64,000 bases of DNA from assembly GCA_000182565.2 (NCBI GenBank), contig KQ257457.1, one strand, 5' to 3'. The DNA is from Spizellomyces punctatus DAOM BR117 (lineage: Eukaryota). The translations under genes were made by a program, and so were the position numbers. Of the stretch, positions 4,562 through 48,705 are shown one piece after another. Position 1 is the first letter of the stretch; each line of letters begins with the position of its first letter. The notes beneath the pieces were generated by a model that did no database searches, was not told the DNA's origin, and saw only the letters and a list, made by a program, of their open reading frames with translations.

Positions 4562-6593
4562 ATGGGTCTAATGCCAGCAGCGAGGGTAGCCAGAATGGCA
4601 AATGCAAACAGCGAAAAGACATCGTCGACAGCGCTGCACGCAAATGGAGGACCGATGACCTCGACAACAGCAGCCACTGTCACAAGTTCATCTACTACTA
4701 ATCCCGATGCTGATTGGTCGCTCCATCCGTCTGGGAAATATTACATTAGCAAGTCAAGTCCATGGTGCTACAGTGAGGCTTCTGGGTACTTTTACTTTGA
4801 TTCAAGCGGTAGGATAATAAAGCAAGATGAAGAATCCAAGCGTGAGGGAGAAACAGACACTGGGAAGGCTGCAAACGACGCGAGGGTCGAGCCAGTTGAA
4901 CAGCCACAGTCTGGACCCAACAGCCGGGACGAAAAGTTCAGGAGTTCAAAGGGAAAGCTTTCAATACTGAAGTTGGAAGAAGGGGAAATTGGAGAGGATG
5001 CGGAGACTGACAAAGTGGCGAAGGCCATGGTCCGAAGTGGCTACATACCGATGGAAGACCGTCGGCACTACTACCACCCAGACACAGGCTACGTGTACGA
5101 CACCTTAACCTCGTCGTATTCATTCTGGGACGAAGCGACCAAATCGTATGTACCTGTGCAAGACAACGGCCAGGCCGCTCCGCAGAGCAATGCCATGATG
5201 AAACTGGTTGTTATACAGTCGAAGCTCTTGGAGCCAGGTTCAATTATACTGGTGGATGCAACGGGGCTAACAGTTGGGAGAGACAAAGCCTTTGAGCGAC
5301 GTTTAGTCCTTAATGAAATCTCGGTTAGCCGGTTTCATTGCACAATTTATGTCAACCGGATAGTTGAGCCATTGGAGCCTATTCCAAATCGGCAGGCTGT
5401 CGAAGAACAGGAACCGGACACTGATGCAACCGTGGAAAAAGCGAATGAGCGAGAACAGATTGACTTTAGCAGTGCTCTAGAACGTGCTAAAGCGATTGCT
5501 GCTAGACTGACGGCAGACCTAAAATCACGCGGTAGGACGGGTCTGTCGACATAAGGAAGTCCGGCACAAGTGGAAATTGACTGTTGGTATTGACTTGCTA
5601 GACACAACCCCAATTCGGTCAACGTCTCCAACCCATGGAACCAAGCGTGTTTTTTCAGACGTGGAGGACTATCGGTCCTCATCACCCGCGGATAGTTTCC
5701 GCAGCAACACAAAGAGAAGCAGAGCGGGACCGCGACCACCTGAAAAGCGATTCATGGACTGCTTTTTTGTAACGGATGGAGGATCAACTCATGGGACATT
5801 CATAAACGGTGAGAGGTTGAGTCAACCAAAGGTAAGGTTTGGATAATGACACGAATATAACATCTTCTCTGAATATATTTTGGGACTTCAGATGAGCAGC
5901 CAACCTCATAGATTACAACATGGCGATACGCTTGTAATCGGCTCAACGACTATGAAAGTGCACATACACGCTTCCTGGGGATGCGACGAATGCCGAGTGA
6001 CATCCACAAATGTGATCAGTACCGAGCCAAAGTCAACACCGCCAAAGTCCGCAGACAATAACACGCCGCAGACTACCAAAGGGGAAAAGACAAAAAAGGG
6101 CTCTCTTGAAGTATCTCGACGCGAAGAACTCCGACGTCTAAAGCGTGAGGCACTAGGCGAAGACGCCGTTACAAAACCACGCGGCAAAAGGACGCAATAC
6201 GTTGACCGTGCTGCCATGCGTCGAAAAATGCATGGTGTGGACGCAAGTGTCATGGAGTTCCGGCAGGAGACTCAGGAGGAATCCAGTACCCATAGCTTTA
6301 CGCCTTCTGTTCCAACGCCTACACACGCGACGCCTATTACAGCTGCCGACCCTACCAACATTGGGAGCCGGATGCTGCAGAAGATGGGCTGGACCGAAGG
6401 GCAAGGCTTGGGTGCTAGCGGGGGTGGAAGGGTAGATCCTGTGGCTGTTTCCATGCGGATGGGAAGACAAGGGTTGGGAATGGGGACACCTGAGGAGGAT
6501 AACATTGGCGGAATGAGTGGAAGAAAGGAGACGTTGTATGAAGCGACGATGAGAAGGGCTAGAGAAAGATTCAATGAGATAAATAATGATTGA
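4562..6593 (+). CDS. AGGF1: OCRE-FHA-G-patch protein, AGGF1-like
   Basis: OCRE-like aromatic repeats (YYHPDTGYVYDTLTSSYSFWD). FHA motifs GRD..SRFH and DGGSTHGTFING. G-patch NIGSRMLQKMGWTEGQGLG. Introns ~5532-5599 and ~5832-5891. Start could be 4562 or 4595. Confidence 0.8.
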
Positions 6594-7636
6594 TGTTACA
6601 TAGCGTGGTCCCATCAGTCGGAAGAGCGCCGTTAATGTGCGCATCCAGCTCATTCATGTTCTTATAGATCACCTCCCAAAGTGATTCTTACTGATGACAA
6701 CGGTCACCCAAAGTTGTGGTATCTAAAAAGCGTGCATTCTGGCATCTTAACTCGACGTTCCTTTCAACCGGCATCACCAATTCTGATTCTGATTATCATA
6801 AATGGCCCACTCGAAGCTCTCATGCAATGCCTAGATTCAACTGAGTAACCCTTCCCAGGGTCTTACATATCAAAGTTTGAGTTTCGGCGCACATCTCAAC
6901 CACATTTTCAAAATGTGCATTTAGCTGCACATAGAGGCAATCGCATACAGCGATTCGATGTGGATTGCAAAAGATGGCATTGCATCACTCACATGTAAAG
7001 TCATTTATAATCTGCCATTATCTCGAGGTGAAGATTACCTGATTTGACTTTTAGCGATTTTGCCAGAGCTGAAGACAAACAGTTTTGTGATTCACCCCTA
7101 CCCACCAACCGGTAGTCACCAGAGTCAACACCCTCCCATTCCCTGCTAGCCCTCTATATCTCCTCGTAAAATGGGGCGCTGGCGGCCTTTCAATCGGGCT
7201 ATATTTGAAGAGACTGGCGATTGGCCGCGTACTGGTCGTCCAAATATCCACCGGCTCATGTTCCATCTCGTCACCAAAATGCCAGTACTGTTATAAACCG
7301 AAACTGGGGATATGAGAATGTGAGTCGTGAATCTCACCCGATCATTTGGGGATTGGCCTCATGTAAGTGACCATGGCGTGGAGGTGAATAAAGTGTCAAA
7401 GGTTTTGAGAGAGTTGTTTGAGGGGAGGAGGTTGCAGTAAGTCAATTTTGTAATGAACTGTAATGAAGAAGATGAACAGCAGATGTGTGTTTCGAGCAGT
7501 GTCAACAATGGATGACGAACTATCTATTGAGTACTGCTATCGCAGGTCTCGTGGTGAAATATCTATGTTTCTCCAAAAGCAAGTATATCATCGATATAGA
7601 TATTCCATCTCACGTATTTGCACTGAGAAACATCCA

Positions 7637-8396
7637 TAGTGTGGAGGTGATTGAAAATGGCACTAGGACCCATTATTATCCGGATTAATCCGGTTAGTCA
7701 TATCGCATAATCAGAACCCCCATCATTGCTCAAAGCGGTGAGGAGGCATGGATGCTAATGTTCTCCAAACTGCGGTGTGGCATGCTAATGTAGCTTTTTT
7801 TTTAAACTGCGGTGAGGCGCATGCCAAAGGTCTATAAAAGGGGGACCTGCTCCCTCTTCCCTCTTTCCTCTTTCCTCTTTACCCATCCTCGACTCAAAGC
7901 ATCCGCCCAACAAGTCTCAGTCCAATCATGAGAATACTGCTCTGGTGCCGAGGACCTCGACCGCCCAACAGCAACCGTGATCAGAACCAGCGGCAACCAA
8001 TCAGATCCGATAACAAAAACCTACTATTATGCTGCCACATTAGTTGAGCTTGGTTGGTATGTATCGATGGCATTTCTTGCATTTCTTGTCATCAGGTCAT
8101 CTTCTGACATGCAGTTTTAGTCTCCAAGCCTTGTCACTGAACATCCTCTGGCTTGTGACGCTGCCCAGTCGATTCGCTCCTGGATGCAAGAGTCTGGCTT
8201 CAATGCCATCAAGAGTTCCAGATCAAGGCCTAGTAGGGACCGCGTGTGGTGGTGGGCAATTATCCGGTTAGAACCAACCGTTACGTATTGCGTGTATAAT
8301 TGCCTAGTAGTAGCTTAGTTAGCTTTTCCAAACCGGTTGTCGCCGGTTTATTCCCTGGTGTAGTAGCTAGTGCCAGTTTCTGTCACCTCTACACTA
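7637..8396 (+). mobile_element. Non-autonomous TIR transposon, probable Fanzor1 'ghost' element (no nuclease ORF)
   Basis: Left end TAGTGTGGAGGTGATTGAAAATGGCACTAG (7637-7666) vs reverse complement of right end 8367-8396 TAGTGTAGAGGTGACAGAAACTGGCACTAG = 26/30. TA at both termini, CATA at 7635-7638. omegaRNA-like structure inside the right end. No long ORF. Confidence 0.85.
7732..7880 (+). promoter_or_regulatory. Putative Pol II promoter inside the ghost element
   Basis: Three AAA(CT)GCGGTG..GCATG repeats (~7732, 7767, 7804), TATAAAAG at 7833-7840, then a pyrimidine tract CTCTTTC x n. Confidence 0.45.
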
Positions 8397-8411
8397 TCCT
8401 ATCTGTCACCA
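8324..8411 (+). ncRNA. Fanzor omegaRNA-like guide RNA (scaffold ~8324-8396 plus ~15-nt flank-derived guide)
   Basis: TTTTCCAAACCGGTTGTCGCCGGTTTATTCCCTGGTGTAGTAGCTAGTGCCAGTTTCTGTCACCTCTACACTA. Stem AAACCGG/CCGGTTT (8330-8349) and stem TGGTGTAG/CTACACTA (8356-8363 with 8389-8396). Motif order matches my recollection of the SpuFz1 omegaRNA scaffold; not aligned computationally. Confidence 0.75.
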
Positions 8412-8484
8412 ACTGTTCACAGATACTTCATGGAGGTCAGAATATTTACCCATATATAGAAGATTACCCCTTGAAATTTTTGTA

Positions 8485-8557
8485 GCCCGGTTAGCTCAAT
8501 CGGTAGAGCGTGAGGCTCTTAACCTCAAGGTTGCGGGTTCGACCCCCGCATCGGGCT
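8485..8557 (+). tRNA. tRNA-Lys(CTT)
   Basis: Full cloverleaf: GCCCGGT/ATCGGGC acceptor, anticodon loop CTCTTAA, TTCGA T-loop. T7 terminator at 8579-8585. Confidence 0.97.
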
Positions 8558-8809
8558 GTTTCATAGGAATGAGGAATGTTTTTTTCCTTAACCGCAGCTG
8601 TCGCGCCTTGTTCCTGGTGGTTGCTTATAAGTAAGATATTTGTCGACCTTTGACGACGCACAGCACCGCAATTATCAAGAACTCCATACATCGGCAAGTA
8701 GCTGCATGATGACAGACTGGTAGTTGCAGTTGCCGTCAGCATTTCAACAATAGTTCTAAGCACACATCAAATCTCCCTAGACACCTACGTACACCATCAA
8801 GCATTATAC

Positions 8810-11800
8810 CTACACCTCATCCTCATCCACAACCACCCCTCCACATGGATGCACCCCGCCTATAGCTTCCTCGTCTTCGTCACAGGACAAAGATCCAGTT
8901 TCCGATGGTTGGAAACCATGTCGTCGCGCAACAATATGAATGTGATAGGCGTCTTCAAATGATAATGAATCTCGGTCGCCACCATTTGGGATGACGGTGT
9001 CCTCATCTGGGAACTGTATAAAGGACCCCATGGCAGTCGAGATACCTTCTTGAAACTTTTCGTCGCCGCCCAGGACGGGGAATTGACCGTTCGGAACAAG
9101 GGTTTTGTCATCCCTGAATAATTATACAATTTAGAATGTGCAGAATGTTGCAGGACAATGACAGGCACTTACCCATAGGGTTTAGGCGCCTCCCGTCTAA
9201 TCTGAACATGGAATGCAGCCGGAAGGTCGCTCAAATCGGGGCTATTCGGTTCAATAGAGACAAGAGACCGCGACGCATCAAACACTTGAAAGCAAAACTG
9301 CGGGCCCATCCATACTGGAGGTCTCGGCGCTGTTTCGTGCGTAACAATTTCAATCTTTGACGGCCACTGTATGCGTGATGGTGGTGATGATTTTGCTGCT
9401 GCTGTTGTTGTTGAAGTTGTTGTTGTTGGAGTTTGCGTTGGGTTGGTTCGAGTGGGAGCAGGAGGACGAGAAGGAGATGTTTGAACGGAGCGTTTGACTT
9501 CACCCCAGTCCATTTCGCGCTTCACGTTCCATTCCATGACTTCAGAGACTTTAACCCGAATATGCTGCTTTTTGCCTCCAAATCCCAACCCCGGGAACGC
9601 ACTAAAGAGCCCCGACGGAGAGAAGCGGTCAAATGACGACGGGCTAGCACCTGTGCTGGATCGCTTAGGTGAGGGCAGGAGGGTTTGAGGGCTGGCTGGG
9701 GTGGGATCTTCGAGTAGGACGTCAACATGATGCATCATGAGGCTGCCGCGGTCGGTAGGATGAAAGGTGAGGAGGCGTTGGCGGAACAGTCGGATCGCAG
9801 AGACTGGAGCTTCAGCTTGAGTGTGGGTCCAACTTCCACCACATGTCGTGCCAGCGGAACCGACAGGACTGCTCCTGTCGTGGGAACGGCGGTCATAAAC
9901 AGCCGCGGCCGTGTCTTTGAGCGCGTTCTTGTCGGGAAGGAAGGCGGCGATCAGAGGGGCACGACCACTTCCGCAGGTGATGCTATCATTAGAAACCACA
10001 CCTTCGGACCATGCTTCGCTTTTCGGAGACGCCTCGACAGGTTGACGCTTGATCCTTGCCACTGGGTACAAGCTGGCAATCCCTCCTTCAGCGGTCCCCG
10101 GTACCAAAGTCTGAGTCTGCTTCGGTTCCGCGAAACCATTGATAATGTTCAGGCGTTCACCATTCATACCATTCAAACTCTTTTCCTTCATAGACGCTGG
10201 GTTAATCCGATACACATGCGTCGTCCCCCGGGTGGTCGTCACGCCAACCCACTTGGAGTCCACCGAAAACGCGACACTCTCGATCGTCGCCATCGTGTAA
10301 CCCCGTTCGAGTTTGTATAAGCATTGAACGGCAGTCCGTGGTTTACCCTTGCTGCTTCGACCTGGGACCTGCCATATATAGAAGGTATTGGCTTGGCTGG
10401 AGGCCGTTATCACCAGTGTTTGGTTTGGGTTGAAGGCGATCACAGAGACAGGATTTGTGTGCGGTTTCCAATGGGCTATGGAAGGGGGATGCGGTTGTGG
10501 AGATGTTGTTGTCGATGAGTTTGAGGAGGGGGATGTCGGCGTAGGGAGGGGGCGGATCACAACCTTGACACACAGTTGAGTCAACAGTCCACATATTGTC
10601 TGATTCACTAACAACACTCACCACTCCGCTAGGCAGCTCGGCATATCTATCCAATTTCCCATTCTCTTTCACCTTCCCCCCAGGTGTACCATTCACCTTG
10701 ACGTCCTCCTCTGCACGCAAGGCGACTCCCTCTTTGGTGGCCGGCGAGAAGTAATTGCTCAAAGCCTGGTACCCATACTCTCCGATCACCTTGGCACCCA
10801 CGACCAAATCTTTTGCTACTTTACCAGCAACCTTCCGGGCCAATCCCGCATCCGGGATCCCGTCTGCGTCGTCGCTGTCGGGATCGGACGGCAATTCGTC
10901 AGTCGATGTTCCTTTGCGGCGGGAGGGCGGCGGGGGAGTAGATGTCGCGTAGATAATATAACGGGAACCGATGTCATAGACTATTGCGTTATTTAGGGGG
11001 TTTGGGCGAGTGTCGGTGTAGACGCCGAGGAGATGGAGTGTTAGAGCGGAATAAATATGGATGGCGTGGGACGCGAGGGACTACACTAATGTGAGAAATA
11101 TTTCAAACGTTAAATGTAGCACGGAAGCATGCGACTCACCACAGCAATGACCCTTGCATTACATTTCGCTTCTAGAGCTGTATCCTCTCCAAACTTTACA
11201 GTCTGCACAGCTGTCAGAGACCTCAACGAGTACAGCTGCAAGGCGCTCTGGGGCTTGCCACTTGAATCCTCGGAAACCACTTCAGTTCTGCAATGCGCCA
11301 TGATTCAGATGCTACAAGCCTGTACTTGAATTATCAATGTAACGTACATGTACGCAATGAGAGGTCTGGCGTGCTCCAAGTAGTCCGTGGAGCCATCTCG
11401 TCGATACGGAGTCGGTAATGCCTACCAAATAGCAAGAAGACATGAACAACAATCCCGCTCAACCAGCAGGAAGCGAGACGCTCACCTCCACCCACGTAAC
11501 CTTCCGGAGCCCCTCCCTCACCGACACCACCTCCCTCACATTCTCCAGGTCCCCCAAGCTCCATACCTGAAAGCCCCTCCCGTAACCCAGAAACAGGCAC
11601 AACTGCCGCTTATTCTCCCAATCCACCCAACAAAATGCAGCGGAAAGGACCCGTTCAGACGGATCAAGGGGATCAAACTCTGTGCTTGGGGACTTCTCAG
11701 AGAGGTTTTGGGCGACGTAGGACGAGATACCGTTAAGGTAGGATGCGATGCTCGATATGGCGGAAGGGGCTCTGTGAACATGTGTGAGAGATGATGATTT

Positions 11801-15400: not shown

Positions 15401-15579
15401 CGGTCCATCTTCTGGCCTTCAATGACTGCACCGAATTTGACAAGAGTTGGCAAATGGTGGACGACCAAACTGATGAAGCAGTGGGAAGGGCGCTGGTAAG
15501 TATTGATATGATCCTCCTTTAGCGTGCATATTCCGACTTGAATGCTTTTTAGGTCGTCATTTCGCTCAACGGCAACCAT
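12449..15579 (-). CDS. Protein with three C-terminal dsRNA-binding motifs (dsRBD), acidic linker and unrecognised N-terminal domain
   Basis: dsRBD helices SPLDAAQDVARLAC, KRGNAKEDAAHVACKALG and KKADAKADACRMAMEEL, each preceded by beta strands. RGG-like tail. Upstream exons are in ORFs 14840-15160 and 15207-15500; 5' end uncertain. Confidence 0.7.
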
Positions 15580-15636
15580 GGCCAGCCAACGGACTTCGAT
15601 AACTTTATAAAGGGTCTCGAGAGCCAATTTCGTACC

Positions 15637-17073
15637 ATGATATCCTCAAAGGCATCTCAGTCCACCAACACTACCATTCATGCGCATCAAAACGCAGCCC
15701 GGAAAACAAAAACCATCTCCCGTACTGTTCCAGCTGGTCGGCATGTTTTGTTTACGTTGCAGTCAAGCACAAGCCGAGGATTCGGCACGCATGATGGGAT
15801 TCCGCTTATGGCGAAGCGAGCTGCACTGGAAGTCGTAGAATGGTTCTGGGAAGAGATTGTGCCCGTGCTGAGAGAGAAGGTAGAAGGGAATGACGACAAT
15901 ATCTCAAAATGGGTGGTTCATCTTTCTGTTGTTGGGCATAGTTTGGGGGGTCTAATTGCACGATACCTCATCAAACTTTTACTGGAACGACTGTCTGTAG
16001 GGAGAAATGGAACCTCCGCAGCAACATCACTGCGTACCGTGTTTGACGCCAACGGGTGGATGACGTTGAAACCACTGACGTTTATGACAGTGTGTTCTCC
16101 ACATTTTGGGTCCCGCCGGAGTGCCAAGCCGGGATCATGGACAGCCCCCGTCTTTCAGGGTATTGTAAGATTTTACCTGACTAATATTGCCGGGCAGACT
16201 GGGAAAGAGCTGTATTTGATTGATGGCACGTCGTCTTTGTCCGCCACGGAACCATGGTCTGATGATTCCCGCGTCCCGTTACTGATTCGAATGGCCGACC
16301 CTCGCTCATCGTACATGAGTACCCTCCGAGAGTTTCGTCCAATCCTTGTGGCAGCTGTGCGCAACGACATTCCCGTCGGGTATTGCTCTGCGGCGGTGAC
16401 GAGCGTCAATCCGCATGCTGAACTGCTGAGCAATGGCGGGGAGGTGGGCGCTGTGGTGGAAGTGACTGCAGGCAGAGAAGTAGGATTACGGGTCATGAGC
16501 TTTTCTGGGTTTCGAACGGAGGCAGTCCCCACGCCTGTGAACCGCAAAATTGGGTTAATGACCAAAGAAGAAGCTGATCCCGTGCGGCAGTTTTGGGTGG
16601 ATCGGCTGTTTGGTGGTGGATCGATTCAAGACGATCCGATACTGCAGAAGATCCGGACTGACCAGACAGTTGAGATTCTGGGACCGCGTGGCACGATGCA
16701 CCACCACCAGGAGCCTTTTCACGACGCACCGTTGTACAATGATCCGCCTTCGTATAATGGCTTCTTGTCAAGTCTCTTATCACCTCCTCCCCCGACAGCC
16801 CCTACAGACGCTTTTGTGCCGGACCACCACCACGACAATCTAATTCCAACACGACTCTTGGCGCGTCTCCAAGAGACATTATGGAATGCACGACGAATCA
16901 ACATTGATTTTGTACTGTCAAACCCCGTAAGCCGAGCGACGGTGCATGCGCTTGCTGTTGGGAAAGCGGAAGGGGGAGTGTTGAATGTCGATGGGCAGGT
17001 GGCAGCGCAACAGGCTGGATGGTTTTTGGCGCGTATCGTCCTATTGGATTATCTGTACGCCTGCGACGAGTGA
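15637..17073 (+). CDS. DUF676-type putative serine esterase/lipase
   Basis: Uninterrupted 478-aa ORF with LSVVGHSLGGLIARY, FMTVCSPHFGS, GQTGKELYLID and NDIPV motifs. Confidence 0.8.
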   Translation: MISSKASQSTNTTIHAHQNAARKTKTISRTVPAGRHVLFTLQSSTSRGFGTHDGIPLMAKRAALEVVEWFWEEIVPVLREKVEGNDDNISKWVVHLSVVGHSLGGLIARYLIKLLLERLSVGRNGTSAATSLRTVFDANGWMTLKPLTFMTVCSPHFGSRRSAKPGSWTAPVFQGIVRFYLTNIAGQTGKELYLIDGTSSLSATEPWSDDSRVPLLIRMADPRSSYMSTLREFRPILVAAVRNDIPVGYCSAAVTSVNPHAELLSNGGEVGAVVEVTAGREVGLRVMSFSGFRTEAVPTPVNRKIGLMTKEEADPVRQFWVDRLFGGGSIQDDPILQKIRTDQTVEILGPRGTMHHHQEPFHDAPLYNDPPSYNGFLSSLLSPPPPTAPTDAFVPDHHHDNLIPTRLLARLQETLWNARRINIDFVLSNPVSRATVHALAVGKAEGGVLNVDGQVAAQQAGWFLARIVLLDYLYACDE

Positions 17074-24170: not shown

Positions 24171-24386
24171 ATGGATGCTTGTGTTGACTTTACTACTAGA
24201 ATATATGCCATTCACATCATATGAGCATTTGCACCGACATTTCATGCTTTCGGCGCATTCTATGAGACCTATATATCGTCTTTAAAGTACTCATCAGTAC
24301 TTCTTAAATAGGAACTGCGAAAACACGACCATCATTACTGTGTTTGTTTATACTTGTGATCGACTGTTACACAGATTATATTGAAA

Positions 24387-24459
24387 GCCCGGTTAGCTCA
24401 ATCGGTAGAGCGTGAGGCTCTTAACCTCAAGGTTGCGGGTTCGACCCCCGCATCGGGCT
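24387..24459 (+). tRNA. tRNA-Lys(CTT)
   Basis: Identical to 8485-8557. T7 at 24480-24486. Confidence 0.97.
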
Positions 24460-24860
24460 GTCTTTAAGAAGGCTTCGAATTTTTTTCGCTGAACGAAATT
24501 GAATGTGGTGTTTTGAAAGGATTATCCGTTGGATAGCACAATGCTGGGCAATAGATGTTCCCTCGAAAGTAGCGAAATGTTCTTGATTATTCGTTGTTTT
24601 TTGATTTTTTAAGAAATAATAAATGTGCAAGTAATGCTACACTAGTTACTAGCAAGTAGATATGGAGGATGGGCCTTTAAATACCTGCCGAATCCTATGA
24701 ACATTGCACAGACACTACAACTAAGACCTGAACTAGCAGGAGCCCCCACAAGCATCTCTAAGGTAAAAAACAAATGGAAAACAAAACGTAAATATACCTA
24801 AACAAAAGGAGAAAACAGCTGCTTCACGACCCGTTCCGCCCTCCCACTTGCACACAACCT

Positions 24861-28571: not shown

Positions 28572-31500
28572 CTACTTCCACTTCCAAGTGAACATCCCAT
28601 CCTTTTGTGCGTCCTCGCACTTTCGTCCTCGTCCGGCAACCGGTGTTGTACCAGGTGTTCGCAGTGCTATCGTACCCTTGAACTCAATAGGTGTATTAAA
28701 TTCCTTTACTGAAGGAGTGTGCGTGCGGCCAACTGAAGGGGTGGTACCCGGAGTGGGAGGCAGGGCATTAGCGGGTAGGCCGTCATCAGGATCATATTGT
28801 ATAGCCGTCGGTGGGTGGAGGTGCGTTACATCCGTTGTGAAATGGAGAAAGAGTTCTGGGGAGTACTGGAAGGCGGATGAACTTGAAAGCAGCGATTCTG
28901 TACAAGGCGTCGCGGCCTCGCTGTATGGGCAGAGATCAGACGATTGAAGTTCGTCATGCTGGACAGGCGATGCCGGTTTTGATGGGAGGGCGTCGGTGGC
29001 TGTCATGGCCGCAGCTGCAGCCAAAGCGGCTTTTTCTCGTTCTCTTGCGGCTGCAGCTATCACTCTGGTCACTGTCTCGGCTGTAGCTCTGGGTCGTCGC
29101 GGCTTCACTTTCGGAGGCGTTGCCCTCTGAGCCATTAGTCGGTTCTCTTTTCCAGAGAGCTGATCGTCAGCGTTTCGCCGTGACCGACCCTTTGGCGTGT
29201 TTGCCTCGACAGCCGCTGTGTTGGTCTCGGCAGGACTCAAAATGCGACTTGGAGGGCCTTGCATATCCACTGTAGACTTGTCCTTTGACTTGATTGCAGG
29301 CGTAGATCCATGAGGGCTTTGCAGGTCGACGCTAGCCTTGTCTCTGGGTTTGATTGCTGACGTAGATCGGCAATGACTTTGCATGTCGACGCTAGTCTTG
29401 CCCCTTGACTTGGGCGCGGGCGTTGATCGATGTACCGTCCGCTTGGGGGTACTCCTACTTTCCCCTCCAACACTAGCCTTATCAATAGGTATGCTTCCCA
29501 CCGTCGCCAACCCTAATCGCCTAGCCTCCGTTTCTTGCGCTTCCAGCACAAACTTGACAGCCTTTCGAACCAATTGCTCAGCACTCCATTGCTCGACCAC
29601 AGCCTGAAACCGATCCATATCGACTGCCAGCGAGCTTGGCCTAGAGCCTTGGTCAATGGTTTGCAAAAGGCCATATTCAACCAAACTGGCGACCAATATC
29701 TGTCCAAACTCCTTTAACAGTTCAGCAACCGTTGGAAAGGGTATTTGCGTTGGATCTATTTCAAATGCTGTGACGACCGGAGTCGGTCGCGTACCTGCTG
29801 CCAATGCACGCGCATGGTCCCGCAACTTTCGGTTAGGACTGACGGTGGACATTTCCGACCTGATGATTGAGTCAACTTGCAGATTGCTCCCCGCAACCCA
29901 GCAAATCATTTCACCCTCTACAAGCTGCATATCAAGCTCACGCACAAACTCGTTCAATCGGCAATCCATATCCACGGTTCGCACATAACCAGTTGCAATA
30001 GGCCCATCTTCCATTCCCGTGGTCAAGTTGACTGGATTGTCTTGCGCTCCAGCCCGAAGTCCGCTCAACTCAATCATTTTGCCCAATTTCCACGCCATAA
30101 CATTCCACACCCCTTTCCGAAACCATTCCAGAATCTCTGATACGCTTCGGGTGCTTGCTGCGACTGCCGCGCTTGAAATCCAATTCAAAGAGTCTCCGTT
30201 TTGAAGAGGGACCATCGAAAATTTTGGGCTGAAAATCCACGGTTGCTTCTCCACTGCCGTTGGAACAGGTATCTTTTGGATTGGAATGATGACATATCAA
30301 CCATTATGAAAGGGACGCCAAGAAAGATCGACAAAAAAGCGAGTGGAACGCAAAAGAACATACACCGACCTGATGGATATTGACAACATGCTCTTGCAAT
30401 TCCCCTCGCTTAGTGAATTCCCGTCCACACACTGGCCATGAGCAGACATACATCATCCGCTCGAAGGAAAATGGTTTCCTGGCTTTGGCCCTCCCCCTCC
30501 CTTTACCCTTTCCTTTCACGCTGACCGCCACGGGACCGTCTTCTTCCCAGGCGTTCTCCTCTCCTAGCCTTCCAATCGGATTGCCAGTTGCAGCTGTAAA
30601 GACGTAATCGCTCTCTCTTGCGCCACCCGTCCACTGTGCCGGATTTTTACCGTTTTTGTGCCGTTCTAATCGTCCCTTTACTGCAAAGGCGGCGGGGCAC
30701 GTCATAACAAGTCGTCCTGATACGGCATCGCGTAGGAGTCCGAGTTCCACGTCCGTTTCCGGGTCCGGGAAGAATTGTGGTCTGCAGGGAGAGTCAGTGG
30801 GTCGGGGCGCCAACGTGGGCAGAGTAGATTGAGATGCTGTTGATGACGAAGCTTGGATGCATGTAAACGTAGCGGGATGTGTTGTGTTCGGCTTCCATAT
30901 TTTTGTGGTTGTAGCGTAGGCCGCAGCTGCTCGTGCTAGGCATCACAAAGGACCGAGTTTCATCAATCAAATGTCCACATAAAAACCCTGCCCAATAGAG
31001 TCGAACAGTTACCTTCAGCCATCACCTTCTGTTCTGTAACCTTTAGATGCGTTGTATGCCACCTGTAGAGTTCCACGTTTGTTGTCTTGAAGTCACAGAC
31101 AAACTGCTTTCTTTGCCACCACAAGCTCTCGCTTGTTTGAGATCCTTTCCGAAGCTTTCCTGGTCGTGATGTGTTGTGGCAAACAGGTGTGGTGAGGGAC
31201 TGAACGTCAAAAGGTCTCGAGTTCTGCGGTGACGGACGCGGATTGTGATTTTGCGGGGGTTGGTGGAGAGACGGGCCGTCGCCATATATGCTTCTCAAGA
31301 AGGGAGGCAGGTATAGTTCATTCGCTGCAGCAAACGCAACGTGTCCGGCGATGGAAGGATCCCGAGGCTGCGATTGGGAAACGGTGGGATCATGATACTC
31401 TGCAGGATCCAAGCCTTCCGGAAGAATCTGTGCTTTTCCATGAGTGACCTCCGATATCACTATCTCGGCACTCTGTTCACCATCGTCATTAGAAACATCC

Positions 31501-46010: not shown

Positions 46011-46125
46011 AAATATCTTTTTTTGCCGTTCTCCTAAAGAACGTGTGGAAAGATGTGAAGGCTCTTCAGTTTGGACTAGAATGGCTAAAACGTCGACAAT
46101 ACTGTTTACCCCTTGAATTTCCGTA

Positions 46126-46198
46126 GCCCGGTTAGCTCAATCGGTAGAGCGTGAGGCTCTTAACCTCAAGGTTGCGGGTTCGACCCCCGCATCGGGCT
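46126..46198 (+). tRNA. tRNA-Lys(CTT)
   Basis: Identical to the other two copies. T6 at 46222-46227. Confidence 0.97.
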
Positions 46199-46345
46199 GT
46201 CGATCATGTCGCTGAATACACTTTTTTGCAAACTGCAGCCCTGTTGTGTGATTTGACGGCAAAACTATTTCTTGTTCCCTCCCTTAGAATTTGTTATTAG
46301 GGCTCCAAGCGTCTGCTGACTGTCTATTTTTTATTCAATCCTTTT

Positions 46346-47058: not shown

Positions 47059-48705
47059 ATGATTGCCACTCTCCTCCAGGCTGCGGCATTCTTGGGCGGA
47101 CTCGGAGGGAACTCTGACGAACCCATTCACGATCCGTTCCTAGGAACAGATATCCAGACCGTCCATCCTCCTCGCCTGCACGCTTCCCAACCACAGCAAC
47201 AACAACAACCTCAACAACAACAAGCACCACACCAGCATCTATACCAATCACATTTAGCTCCATGCAGTTCGTTGGAAACTAGCGCTCCTTTGGTGGCCCC
47301 GTCCGCCGAGGCCGTCACAGTTCAACCAGCACTCTTGGACACGCTCCCCACCGTCTCTTTCCTACAACCACCCGCACGCGCGCACCCGCCAACACCGATA
47401 TCCACACTATTAGCTTTTAGAAAGCAGATAAAGAATGACACGGCCGTAGAAGAGAATCTCTTGGATCCTGTCGCTGTGGTGGATTTTGCCCAGGAATTGA
47501 CAGTGCCTGGTGTGGAAGGATTGGATAGCACGTCGCAGATGACTTGTAGTATAGATTTTGAGGTACGTGGTCCTACGGATTCCCGGCGTGCCGTATTTCC
47601 CACCAGAACGACCTATTGACTTTTTTCGTGTNNNNNNNNNNNNNNNNNNNNNNNNNNNNNNNNNNNNNNNNNNNNNNNNNNNNNNNNNNNNNNNNNNNNN
47701 NNNNNNNNNNNNNNNNNNNNNNNNNNNNNNNNNNNNNNNNNNNNNNNNNNNNNNNNNNNNNNNNNNNNNNNNNNNNNNNNNNNNNNNNNNNNNNNNNNNN
47801 NNNNNNNNNNNNNNNNNNNNNNNNNNNNNNNNNNNNNNNNNNNNNNNNNNNNNNNNNNNNNNNNNNNNNNNNNNNNNNNNNNNNNNNNNNNNNNNNNNNN
47901 NNNNNNNNNNNNNNNNNNNNNNNNNNNNNNNNNNNNNNNNNNNNNNNNNNNNNNNNNNNNNNNNNNNNNNNNNNNNNNNNNNNNNNNNNNNNNNNNNNNN
48001 NNNNNNNNNNNNNNNNNNNNNNNNNNNNNNNNNNNNNNNNNNNNNNNNNNNNNNNNNNNNNNNNNNNNNNNNNNNNNNNNNNNNNNNNNNNNNNNNNNNN
48101 NNNNNNNNNNNNNNNNNNNNNNNNNNNNNNNNNNNNNNNNNNNNNNNNNNNNNNNNNNNNNNNNNNNNNNNNNNNNNNNNNNNNNNNNNNNNNNNNNNNN
48201 NNNNNNNNNNNNNNNNNNNNNNNNNNNNNNNNNNNNNTTGACTGCTGAGATTGGAACGCAGTTGATGCGCTTGCAGCGAATATGATGGGGACGGACGGAG
48301 CGCTGTCCGAGACGTTGTTCAGGCCGTGACGGCCTTGTCGATGCTGTTACCGGGAAACGGTAGCCTCATGGGTATGTGTTGTGTTTACGCACAAGAAGAT
48401 TCTAGTCAAATGTTGATCCAGTTGTGTGTTGAACAGCAGGAGACGGTGCGATGACGCAGCAAGCAACCGACATGTCTGCGATTTCTCCAGACCAAAACGC
48501 CACGGCTGCTGCGGTCGCTGCTGCTGCCGCCGCCCTGGTTGCTGGATTCAACGAAACGGCCATGCAGCAGAGTACGGACGCCATGATGACGCAGGACAAT
48601 GAAGCGCAGATGATGGATATTGGGAAAGGTAGCGTATTTGGCGTACGATCCTTCTTGGTAGCATACGTTCCAACCGACTTTATACAACAGGAGACGATAG
48701 TCTAA
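47059..48705 (+). CDS. Hypothetical Q/A-rich protein spanning the assembly gap
   Basis: Exon 47059-~47562 (poly-Q, donor GTACGT). After the gap, exons ~48277-48371 and ~48436-48628, and a short last exon ending at TAA 48705. Confidence 0.5.
47632..48237. other. Assembly gap (606 N)
   Basis: Run of N. Confidence 1.

What the first reader, a model, noticed from the sequence alone, without database searches (positions are those of the whole stretch)
7635..8411. Protein-less Fanzor/OMEGA 'ghost' transposon: a eukaryotic RNA-guided system locus hidden in an intergenic region
Seen: 30-bp TIRs (26/30) at 7637-7666 and 8367-8396, TA at both ends, CATA spanning the left junction, no ORF long enough for a transposase or nuclease, and a structured right end that extends ~45 nt inward of the TIR. 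Established: Fanzors are eukaryotic TnpB-related RNA-guided DNA endonucleases whose omegaRNA overlaps the transposon right end. The S. punctatus Fanzor1 recognises a CATA TAM, and ORF-less ghost copies are known in that genome. Inference: this is such a ghost, mobilised in trans and able to supply a guide RNA to a Fanzor encoded elsewhere. The system class is published; I cannot tell whether this particular copy or subfamily has been characterised.
Basis: partly seen in the sequence, partly recalled or inferred. Interest (0 to 1): 0.95.

Follow-up and report, generated by a model that had tools for sequence, protein, structure and literature searches.

The report
Known Fanzor "ghost" guide-RNA transposon copy
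This is a real, many-copy, protein-less mobile element of the chytrid fungus Spizellomyces punctatus that fits the published "ghost Spu-1" elements supplying guide RNAs to the Fanzor nuclease, so it is already known, although it also seems to carry its own promoter and an intron.

Summary
Arms 7637-7666 and 8367-8396 match at 26 of 30 positions (0 of 200 shuffles reach 26). TA sits at both ends, CATA spans the left junction, and no ORF exceeds 75 aa. Only the right end folds well (z -4.2; mirrored left end z +0.5).

The window is Spizellomyces punctatus DAOM BR117: one window ORF is 100% identical to SPPG_05009. In this genome Saito et al. 2023 catalogued 134 "ghost Spu-1" loci with 30-nt IRs, a conserved CA before the left IR, a 75-nt right-end omegaRNA scaffold and a CATA TAM.

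Public-run contigs show a multi-copy family. Depth in a DNA-like run rises from about 5 to 120-400, and the rise falls in the bins that hold the element.

The system, and very probably this locus, are already published. I could not align the right end to a Fanzor-locus omegaRNA, because no genome or printed sequences were available and supplements were closed.

One feature appears in none of the main-text parts I read or searched. The element has a TATA box, a canonical 64-nt intron that is present in DNA contigs and absent from RNA-derived ones, and family RNA 3-4 orders of magnitude above the neighbouring genes. It looks like a Pol II guide-RNA precursor gene.

The parts
7635..7638 (+). CATA at the left junction: CA flank plus the TA that starts the left IR. 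It equals the published SpuFz1 TAM.
   Evidence: Read directly. Saito 2023 section 7 reports a conserved CA upstream of the 5' IR and a CATA TAM. Sister-copy contigs start to align at 7631-7636 (table 8).
7637..7666 (+). Left inverted repeat (30 nt)
   Evidence: 26 of 30 against the right arm. Depth in the DNA-like run X1 jumps from 5.4 to 397 in bin 7610-7690.
7672..7701 (.). Left subterminal palindrome holding ATCCGGTTAG (7688-7697). A second, same-strand copy lies at 8262-8271.
   Evidence: I3; this 10-mer occurs only twice in the 64-kb window, both times inside the element. 4 of the 21 CCGGTT sites on the window's + strand lie in the element.
7767..7818 (+). Two 15-nt direct repeats (7767-7781, 7804-7818) around a T-run, upstream of the TATA box. 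This is the variable part of the family.
   Evidence: D2. tables 5/5c: sister contigs replace 7722-7773 and 7741-7794 with other letters.
7833..7840 (+). TATA box (TATAAAAG), followed by a CT-rich tract at 7850-7889. Inferred Pol II core promoter.
   Evidence: Read directly. RNA-derived run X4 rises from 19.7 (7691-7771) to 808, 4,381 and 22,427 in the next three bins (table 2).
7900..8056 (+). Exon 1 of the family transcript. The 5' end is approximate and the 3' end is exact.
   Evidence: table 2 and the joint 8055->8120. The sister gene model SPPG_09412 (P0001) starts at the ATG that corresponds to 7928.
8057..8120 (+). 64-nt spliceosomal intron (GTATGT ... CTGAC ... TTTTAG)
   Evidence: the joint skipping 64 nt (GT..AG) is seen in 3 contigs of X4 and 1 of X11, and loose ends in X14 agree. 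Depth at the listed intron positions (8064-8103) is 0 in X4 and X11 but 44-108 in the DNA-like X1, where 2 of the 8 listed X1 pieces (records 4 and 5) run through the intron. Sequence signals.
8121..8396 (+). Exon 2, running into the right end
   Evidence: X4 depth rises from about 29,000 to 113,000 toward the right end. One X14 RNA contig matches 8120-8307 with 0 differences.
8322..8396 (+). Inferred 75-nt omegaRNA scaffold: stem-loop 1 at 8330-8349; stem 2 at 8356-8366 / 8387-8396 with a 3-nt bulge (8367-8369) and an inner hairpin at 8370-8386
   Evidence: All 4 positions where the right arm departs from the left arm (8376, 8381, 8382, 8390) are base-paired here. With left-arm letters the MFE falls from -23.0 to -14.5 kcal/mol. 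Size and bulge fit Saito 2023.
8367..8396 (-). Right inverted repeat (30 nt)
   Evidence: X1 depth is 356 in bin 8339-8419 and 2.2 in the next bin.
8397..8411 (+). Inferred 15-nt guide (locus-specific flank read through from the right end)
   Evidence: Inference from Saito 2023 section 7, which reports 14-15 nt variable extensions. It is unpaired in the fold and unique in the window at up to 3 mismatches. No RNA was seen across this junction for this locus.

Best explanation
The element at 7637-8396 is one copy of the "ghost Spu-1" family of Spizellomyces punctatus DAOM BR117. This is a non-autonomous element with 30-nt inverted repeats and a TA duplication. It has no Fanzor gene, but its right end encodes a 75-nt omegaRNA scaffold.

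Proposed mechanism:
1. A promoter inside the element (TATA box at 7833) drives a + strand transcript.
2. A 64-nt intron (8057-8120) is spliced out.
3. The last 75 nt of the transcript (8322-8396), plus about 15 nt of read-through flank (8397-8411), are bound and trimmed by SpuFz1 made from one of the Fanzor-bearing Spu-1 loci elsewhere in the genome.
4. That RNP recognises CATA followed by the guide. This is exactly the sequence of the empty site (CA-TA-flank), as in the TnpB/Fanzor homing model.

Shown here: the host genome, the anatomy, the multi-copy status, the right-end-only fold, the intron, and abundant family RNA. Taken from the literature: the Fanzor link, the scaffold and guide sizes, and the activity of ghost scaffolds. 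Inferred: that the spliced transcript is the omegaRNA precursor, that this particular copy is expressed, and how the element is moved.
For: Host: window ORF 15553-17070 is 100% identical over 100% of its length to SPPG_05009 of S. punctatus DAOM BR117.

Literature: Saito 2023 (section 7 read whole; passages) reports 134 ghost loci in that genome with 30-nt IRs, a conserved CA before the 5' IR, a 75-nt right-end scaffold, a 14-15 nt guide and a CATA TAM, and reports that ghost scaffolds work with SpuFz1. Bao & Jurka 2013 report SPu-1 with putative TA duplications (passages).

This copy: 26 of 30 IR matches, TA at both ends, CATA at the left junction. No ORF above 75 aa.

Multi-copy: in run X1, which covers all 30 bins and reads unspliced through a neighbouring intron, depth is 5.4 on the left and about 2 on the right, and 122-397 in bins 7610-8419. 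249 pieces were laid (98/80/57/14 at >=99, 95-99, 90-95 and <90% likeness).

Fold: the right end gives z -4.2 and the mirrored left end z +0.5. The four arm asymmetries are all paired at the right end. The pair 8330-8349 is A-U here; in sister contigs it is G with U or C.

RNA: runs X4 and X11 splice the neighbouring BCAS3-like intron 9113-9171, so they are RNA-derived. In X4 the flanks stand at 6-16 while the element rises from 808 to 113,080 toward the right end. The 64-nt intron has zero depth in X4 and X11 at the listed positions but is present in X1.

Annotation: a sister copy is annotated as a spliced gene model (SPPG_09412) with the same exon junction.
Against: - No Fanzor-bearing sister copy and no published omegaRNA sequence could be compared, so homology of these IRs and this scaffold to the Fanzor loci rests on the paper's description, not on an alignment made here.
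- The interior is 700 nt, not the roughly 550 nt quoted for the conserved region. The transcribed and less variable part, about 7850-8396, is roughly 550 nt, but equating the two is my inference.
- Contigs cannot show an 88-90 nt RNA, its ends or the guide. No RNA contig bridges 8396/8397 at this locus.
- This copy's own letter is seen in RNA contigs at 8330 (367 of 86,103 depth units in X4) but not at 7967 (0 of 38,819). Its own expression is therefore unresolved.
- No empty-site joint (7636->8397) appeared in any of the 4 runs laid.
- Rfam has no match here other than the tRNA.
Confidence: 0.85

Rival explanations
1. A member of the ghost family, but a silent relic. The copy sits in the genome and is neither transcribed nor able to supply a working guide.
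For: This copy has letters that most sister contigs lack. These are an extra A at 8015 (13,938 of 17,447 depth units in X4 lack one or two bases there), A at 7967 (0 of 38,819 in X4 carry it) and A at 8330. No RNA contig crosses its right junction.
Against: The TATA box, the splice signals, both IRs and the CATA are intact. The private 8330 A keeps the base pair with 8349. RNA contigs carrying A at 8330 do exist (367 depth units in X4). Contigs drop rare variants, so absence proves nothing.
Confidence: 0.2
2. An ordinary TA-duplicating (Tc1/mariner-like) MITE with no role in RNA guidance. The right-end fold would be incidental or a transposase-binding feature.
For: TA at both ends, 30-nt TIRs, multi-copy, no coding capacity. 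In Pfam, 20 of the 39 window ORFs of 200 aa or more were scanned and none is a transposase or TnpB.
Against: The host genome and all testable features match the published ghost elements, whose scaffolds were shown to guide SpuFz1. The fold is strictly one-sided, and the IR asymmetries are the ones that create right-end RNA pairs.
Confidence: 0.07
3. The element carries a small protein-coding gene (the SPPG_09412-type spliced ORF of 80-92 aa), and that protein is its cargo.
For: A sister copy is annotated as an 80-aa protein with the same intron. With the family-majority 1-nt deletion at 8015 and splicing, an ATG at 7928 opens a 92-aa frame.
Against: The frame is not kept between copies. This copy stops after 39 aa, and the sister model shifts frame near 8193 and ends elsewhere. 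Of the 16 variable exon positions shown table 3 between 7928 and 8271, 4, 7 and 5 fall on codon positions 1, 2 and 3, so there is no third-position excess. This is my hand count on a table that is cut. No Pfam domain is on record for P0001, and it was the only candidate of 41-132 aa.
Confidence: 0.04

Closest known systems
Ghost Spu-1 elements of S. punctatus DAOM BR117 (Saito et al., Nature 2023, PMC10432273; scaffolds gst1-gst126 in Nat Commun 2026, PMC13434818)
   Same: Same genome. 30-nt IRs, CA before the left IR, no Fanzor ORF, many copies, a 75-nt structured right end with a 3-nt bulge in stem 2, and CATA at the junction.
   Different: 700 nt lie between the IRs here, against the roughly 550 nt of conserved region quoted. 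The TATA box, the intron and the abundant spliced RNA seen here are not mentioned in that paper's main text (0 occurrences of intron, TATA, spliced or polyadenyl). Supplements were not seen.
Canonical SPu-1 / SpuFz1 locus (Bao & Jurka 2013, PMC3627910; Saito 2023)
   Same: TIRs of about 30-33 nt, putative TA duplication, and an omegaRNA at the right end followed by a 14-15 nt guide.
   Different: That locus is about 2.1 kb with a 633-638 aa Fanzor ORF. According to the paper, ghost IRs differ from its IRs at seven positions and stem 2 differs. None of this could be aligned here.
Bacterial IS200/IS605 TnpB-omegaRNA elements and their protein-less derivatives (recalled, not from a call)
   Same: The guide RNA overlaps the right end, the guide is the flank, and the TAM sits at the left junction, so the RNP targets the empty site.
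   Different: Those elements have no TIRs and make no duplications (Bao & Jurka background). This one has 30-nt TIRs and TA, eukaryotic promoter signals and a spliceosomal intron.
Stowaway-type Tc1/mariner MITEs (recalled)
   Same: Short, non-coding, TIR-bounded, TA duplication, high copy number.
   Different: Such MITEs are not known to encode a nuclease guide RNA. No mariner transposase with these TIRs was found by Saito et al. in this genome (discussion passage).

Membership tests
Ghost Spu-1 element (Saito 2023) | Lies in the S. punctatus genome | tested here: met
   window ORF 100% identical, 100% covered, to SPPG_05009 of S. punctatus DAOM BR117. The next-best hit is 47% identical.
Ghost Spu-1 element (Saito 2023) | 30-nt inverted repeats at both ends | tested here: met
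   26 of 30; 0 of 200 shuffles reach this.
Ghost Spu-1 element (Saito 2023) | Conserved CA upstream of the 5' IR (CATA with the IR's TA) | tested here: met
   for this copy. Conservation across copies is only hinted at, because 4 of the 5 listed sister pieces that start at this end begin to align at 7635 or 7636 and the fifth at 7631 (table 8).
Ghost Spu-1 element (Saito 2023) | No Fanzor ORF between the IRs | tested here: met
   the longest ORF is 75 aa.
Ghost Spu-1 element (Saito 2023) | Many copies (134 loci reported) | tested here: met
   X1 depth is 23-74 times the left flank across the element's bins, with 249 pieces laid. This is an order of magnitude, not a count.
Ghost Spu-1 element (Saito 2023) | Conserved region of about 550 nt between the IRs | tested here: inconclusive
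   700 nt lie between the arms. The left 150-200 nt are the variable part in sister contigs (tables 5/5c), which leaves about 550 nt.
Ghost Spu-1 element (Saito 2023) | IRs and the 75-nt right end homologous to those of Fanzor-bearing Spu-1 loci | not testable with these tools
   No genome is held. 0 hits in 2 metagenome scans, 1 prokaryote-genome scan and 1 viral scan. No omegaRNA letters appear in the main texts. Supplements are closed.
Ghost Spu-1 element (Saito 2023) | Right end folds as an omegaRNA scaffold; stem 2 has a 3-nt bulge | tested here: met
   two stem-loops, a 3-nt bulge at 8367-8369, z -4.2. Left-end control z +0.5.
Ghost Spu-1 element (Saito 2023) | 88-90 nt RNA with a 14-15 nt guide; binds SpuFz1 | not testable with these tools
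   Only contigs were available. They show abundant family RNA over the right end, but no ends and no small RNA.
IS200/IS605-type TnpB element | No TIRs and no target duplication | tested here: not met
   30-nt TIRs and a flanking TA are present.
Tc1/mariner-type MITE | TA duplication and TIRs shared with a mariner transposase-bearing element | tested here: inconclusive
   TA is present. No partner element could be searched. None of the 20 window ORFs scanned is a transposase.

The most novel reading that the evidence does not exclude
Ghost Spu-1 elements may be self-contained Pol II guide-RNA genes rather than bare MITEs that happen to keep an omegaRNA. Each copy would carry its own TATA promoter and a spliceosomal intron, and would make a very abundant spliced non-coding transcript whose 3' end is the omegaRNA scaffold plus the locus-specific guide. 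The family would then be a dispersed, highly expressed guide array serving Fanzor in trans. The main-text parts I read or searched do not describe this (supplements unseen).
Probability: 0.4. Interest if true: 0.55.

Novelty: already known. Interest (0 to 1): 0.28.

Why it matters
The first eukaryotic RNA-guided nuclease system was defined in this genome, and its ghost loci have already been mined for genome-editing scaffolds. The locus itself therefore adds a confirmed example, not a discovery.

What may add something is how ghost guides are made in the native host. The evidence points to a promoter, an intron and very abundant spliced RNA inside the element. If so, Fanzor guides are produced from Pol II precursors, which is a eukaryotic solution to omegaRNA expression. 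It can be tested with existing S. punctatus RNA data and could inform expression designs.

Tried and rejected
- Whole-genome search for sister copies: no genome is held for this window.
A second request sent in the same turn returned an error. It was not tried again.
- Collection scans all returned 0 hits. These were the degenerate IR pattern in metagenome contigs, and a 24-nt right-end pattern in metagenome contigs, genome contigs and viral contigs. These collections probably do not hold this fungus, so this says nothing about copy number.
- A full-text search for printed omegaRNA letters found 0 papers. There were 0 occurrences in Saito 2023, the 2024 Cell paper and the 2026 Nat Commun paper.
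- Rfam at E <= 1 over 6500-9500 matched only the tRNA.
- No Fanzor in the window. Two long ORFs without a Pfam hit were compared with solved structures: 0 hits for one and PHD fingers for the other. 20 of the 39 ORFs of 200 aa or more were scanned in Pfam without any TnpB or transposase family. The other 19 were not scanned; several of them overlap other ORFs or the N-run.
- Empty-site allele: no joint across 7636->8397 in the 4 runs laid. Contigs of RNA runs and one low-depth DNA run cannot exclude one.
- The whole of exon 2 as a structured RNA: z -1.19, with 25 of 200 shuffles as good. Only the last 75 nt stand out.
- A protein search with ORF 28575-30296 gave no hit among 8,000 candidates, which is uninformative.
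- Chance inverted repeat: rejected.
- CACTA-type element: the terminal letters read TAGTG...CACTA, the reverse of the CACTA...TAGTG order I recall for that superfamily. Rejected from the sequence.
Full report
**Observation**

- The repeat finder reports arms 7636-7666 and 8367-8397 (31 nt, 87% complementary, 700 nt apart).
- Over the 30-nt arms 7637-7666 and 8367-8396 the match is 26 of 30. None of 200 shuffles of 7600-8440 reaches 26; the maximum is 24. blastn gives E = 7.9e-5 for the arm pair against the window.
- TA lies at both ends, and CATA spans the left junction at 7635-7638.
- The longest ORF overlapping the element is 75 aa.
- The window holds no second copy. Even at 10 mismatches only the two arms are found.

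**Which genome**

The window is eukaryotic: BCAS3, G-patch/OCRE, KA1 and CLU domains appear in its long ORFs. ORF 15553-17070 is 100% identical over its full length to SPPG_05009 of Spizellomyces punctatus DAOM BR117. The next relatives are other chytrids at 47% or less. The window is therefore that genome or an identical strain.

**What is published for that genome**

- Saito et al. 2023 (PMC10432273; section 7 read whole, other passages) report 42 loci with full or partial Fanzor genes and 134 "ghost Spu-1" loci without the ORF.
- The ghost loci have a conserved region of about 550 nt flanked by 30-nt IRs, which differ from the Fanzor-locus IRs at seven positions. They have a conserved CA upstream of the 5' IR.
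- Their 75-nt right-end region is similar to the omegaRNA scaffold of Fanzor loci. The guide is 14-15 nt of flank and the TAM is CATA. Ghost scaffolds support SpuFz1 editing in human cells, and their stem 2 has a 3-nt bulge.
- Bao & Jurka 2013 (PMC3627910; passages) describe SPu-1 as about 2.1 kb with 33-bp TIRs and putative TA duplications.
- A 2026 Nat Commun paper (PMC13434818; passages, section 8 part 1 of 2) extracted 126 unique ghost scaffolds of 74-76 nt from this genome and tested representatives.
- The element here meets every one of these features that I could test (see the membership table).

**Copy number**

No genome is held, so I laid contigs of four public runs on 6800-9200 at 80% likeness.
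- Run X1 behaves as DNA. It covers 30 of 30 bins and reads straight through a neighbouring intron.
- Its depth is 5.4 left of the element and about 2 right of it. It is 122-397 in the ten bins 7610-8419, with the step falling in the bins that hold the two IRs.
- 249 pieces were laid: 98, 80, 57 and 14 at >=99, 95-99, 90-95 and <90% likeness.
- Listed sister contigs with other flanks start to align between 7631 and 7636, and one stops at 8397.
- The family therefore has dozens of copies or more, in line with the published number.

**Right end**

- 8322-8396 folds into stem-loop 1 (8330-8349) and a long stem 2 (8356-8366 with 8387-8396). Stem 2 has a 3-nt bulge and an inner hairpin at 8370-8386. 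The energy is -23.0 kcal/mol, z = -4.21, and 0 of 200 shuffles fold as well. The 15 nt beyond stay unpaired.
- The mirrored piece of the left end does not fold better than shuffles: z = +0.52.
- The four positions at which the right arm departs from the left arm (8376, 8381, 8382, 8390) are all base-paired in this fold. With left-arm letters the MFE falls to -14.5, close to the shuffle mean. Since 22 of the 30 arm positions are paired, the placement alone is weak evidence.
- The pair 8330-8349 is A-U here. In sister contigs 8330 is G throughout, with U or sometimes C opposite. This is compatible with a kept pair.

**RNA, promoter and intron (the part I did not find in print)**

- Runs X4 and X11 carry a joint 9112->9172 that removes a canonical minus-strand intron (GTAAGT...CAG) of the BCAS3-like gene. 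They are therefore RNA-derived, whatever their label.
- In X4 the neighbouring transcripts stand at depth 6-16. The element stands at 19.7 (7691-7771), 808, 4,381, 22,427, 11,446, 29,360, 59,005, 68,287 and 113,080 (8339-8419).
- These are summed over all family contigs, so they are family levels, not this copy's. Several variant letters each carry thousands of depth units in 2-7 contigs, so several copies are expressed.
- The rise begins at a TATA box (TATAAAAG, 7833-7840), which is followed by a CT-rich tract.
- A joint that skips 64 nt (8057-8120; GTATGT, branch-like CTGAC, TTTTAG) is seen in 3 contigs of X4 and 1 of X11, and loose ends in the RNA run X14 agree. Depth at the listed intron positions is 0 in X4 and X11, but 44-108 in the DNA-like X1, where listed contigs run through it. 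X14 has one unspliced contig.
- Independently, the only protein-database hit of the 75-aa ORF is SPPG_09412 of S. punctatus. This is an 80-aa gene model from a sister copy that starts at the ATG equivalent to 7928 and uses the same exon junction.

**Coding or not**

- With the family-majority deletion at 8015 and splicing, a 92-aa frame opens. In this copy the frame closes after 39 aa. The annotated sister shifts frame near 8193 and ends elsewhere.
- The 16 variable exon positions shown between 7928 and 8271 fall 4, 7 and 5 on codon positions 1, 2 and 3. This is my hand count on a cut table.
- I read the transcript as non-coding.

**Mechanism**

The best-supported reading is the published one, with one addition.
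- The element is a non-autonomous TA-duplicating TIR element. Its right end, transcribed into the flank, yields an omegaRNA for SpuFz1 made elsewhere. The RNP recognises CATA plus the guide, which is the sequence of the unoccupied site.
- The addition is that the guide is probably made from the 3' end of a spliced Pol II transcript driven from inside the element.
- Not shown here: the small RNA itself, read-through at this locus, binding, cleavage, and the transposase that moves the element. Saito et al. found none within Spu-1 IRs (discussion passage).
- One X11 contig continues 234 nt past a sister copy's right end. This is a weak hint of read-through.

**Limits**

- I could not align the right end or the IRs to a Fanzor-bearing locus or to a printed omegaRNA. 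Four collection scans found nothing. No main text prints the letters. Supplements, which list the loci and scaffolds, are closed.
- The 700-nt interior against "around 550 nt" is unresolved.
- This copy's own expression is unresolved. Its letter at 8330 is present in X4 RNA contigs at 367 of 86,103 depth units, and its letter at 7967 at 0 of 38,819.

**Novelty**

- The system, the ghost class, the count of loci in this very genome and the function of their scaffolds are in print, so the finding is already known.
- I found no mention of a promoter, TATA box, intron or splicing for ghost loci. The Saito main text has 0 occurrences of intron, TATA, spliced or polyadenyl. The only two papers holding both "Fanzor" and "ghost" are Saito 2023 and the 2026 Nat Commun paper; of the latter I read the ghost passages and part 1 of section 8 and did not search it for these terms. 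SPPG_09412 appears in 0 papers. The listing was seen as titles and abstract starts only. Supplements and unsearched papers may hold it.

Noticed in passing
window 8484-8558, 24386-24460, 46125-46199: Three tRNA-Lys(CTT) genes on the + strand within 64 kb. The first lies 88 bp downstream of the ghost element's right end. RNA and metagenome contigs with other flanks also match the tRNA (table 7).
   Followed up: no
window 47632-48237: A run of 606 N inside the lowest-GC part of the window (GC 0.38-0.41 at 46-50 kb). The many overlapping "ORFs" at 47410-48365 are artefacts of it. What lies there cannot be read.
   Followed up: partly
window 6996-7607: An RNA-derived contig of X4 (612 nt, 0 differences) ends 30 nt before the left IR, about where 31-mers would begin to include the repeated IR sequence. 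The upstream transcript may therefore run into the element (table 8).
   Followed up: no
window 7688-7697 and 8262-8271: The 10-mer ATCCGGTTAG occurs only twice in the 64-kb window, both inside the element and on the same strand. CCGGTT is enriched, with 4 of the 21 + strand window sites inside 761 bp. It may be a subterminal protein-binding motif.
   Followed up: partly
window 9113-9171 (minus strand): A 59-nt intron (GTAAGT...CAG) of the BCAS3-like gene, confirmed by spliced contigs in X4 and X11.
   Followed up: yes
window 8362 (sister contigs): Contigs of X11 (2) and X14 (1) follow the element up to 8362 and then continue with unlike sequence just before the right IR (table 7). They may come from a divergent ghost clade with another right end, as the 2026 paper describes several clades.
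   Followed up: no
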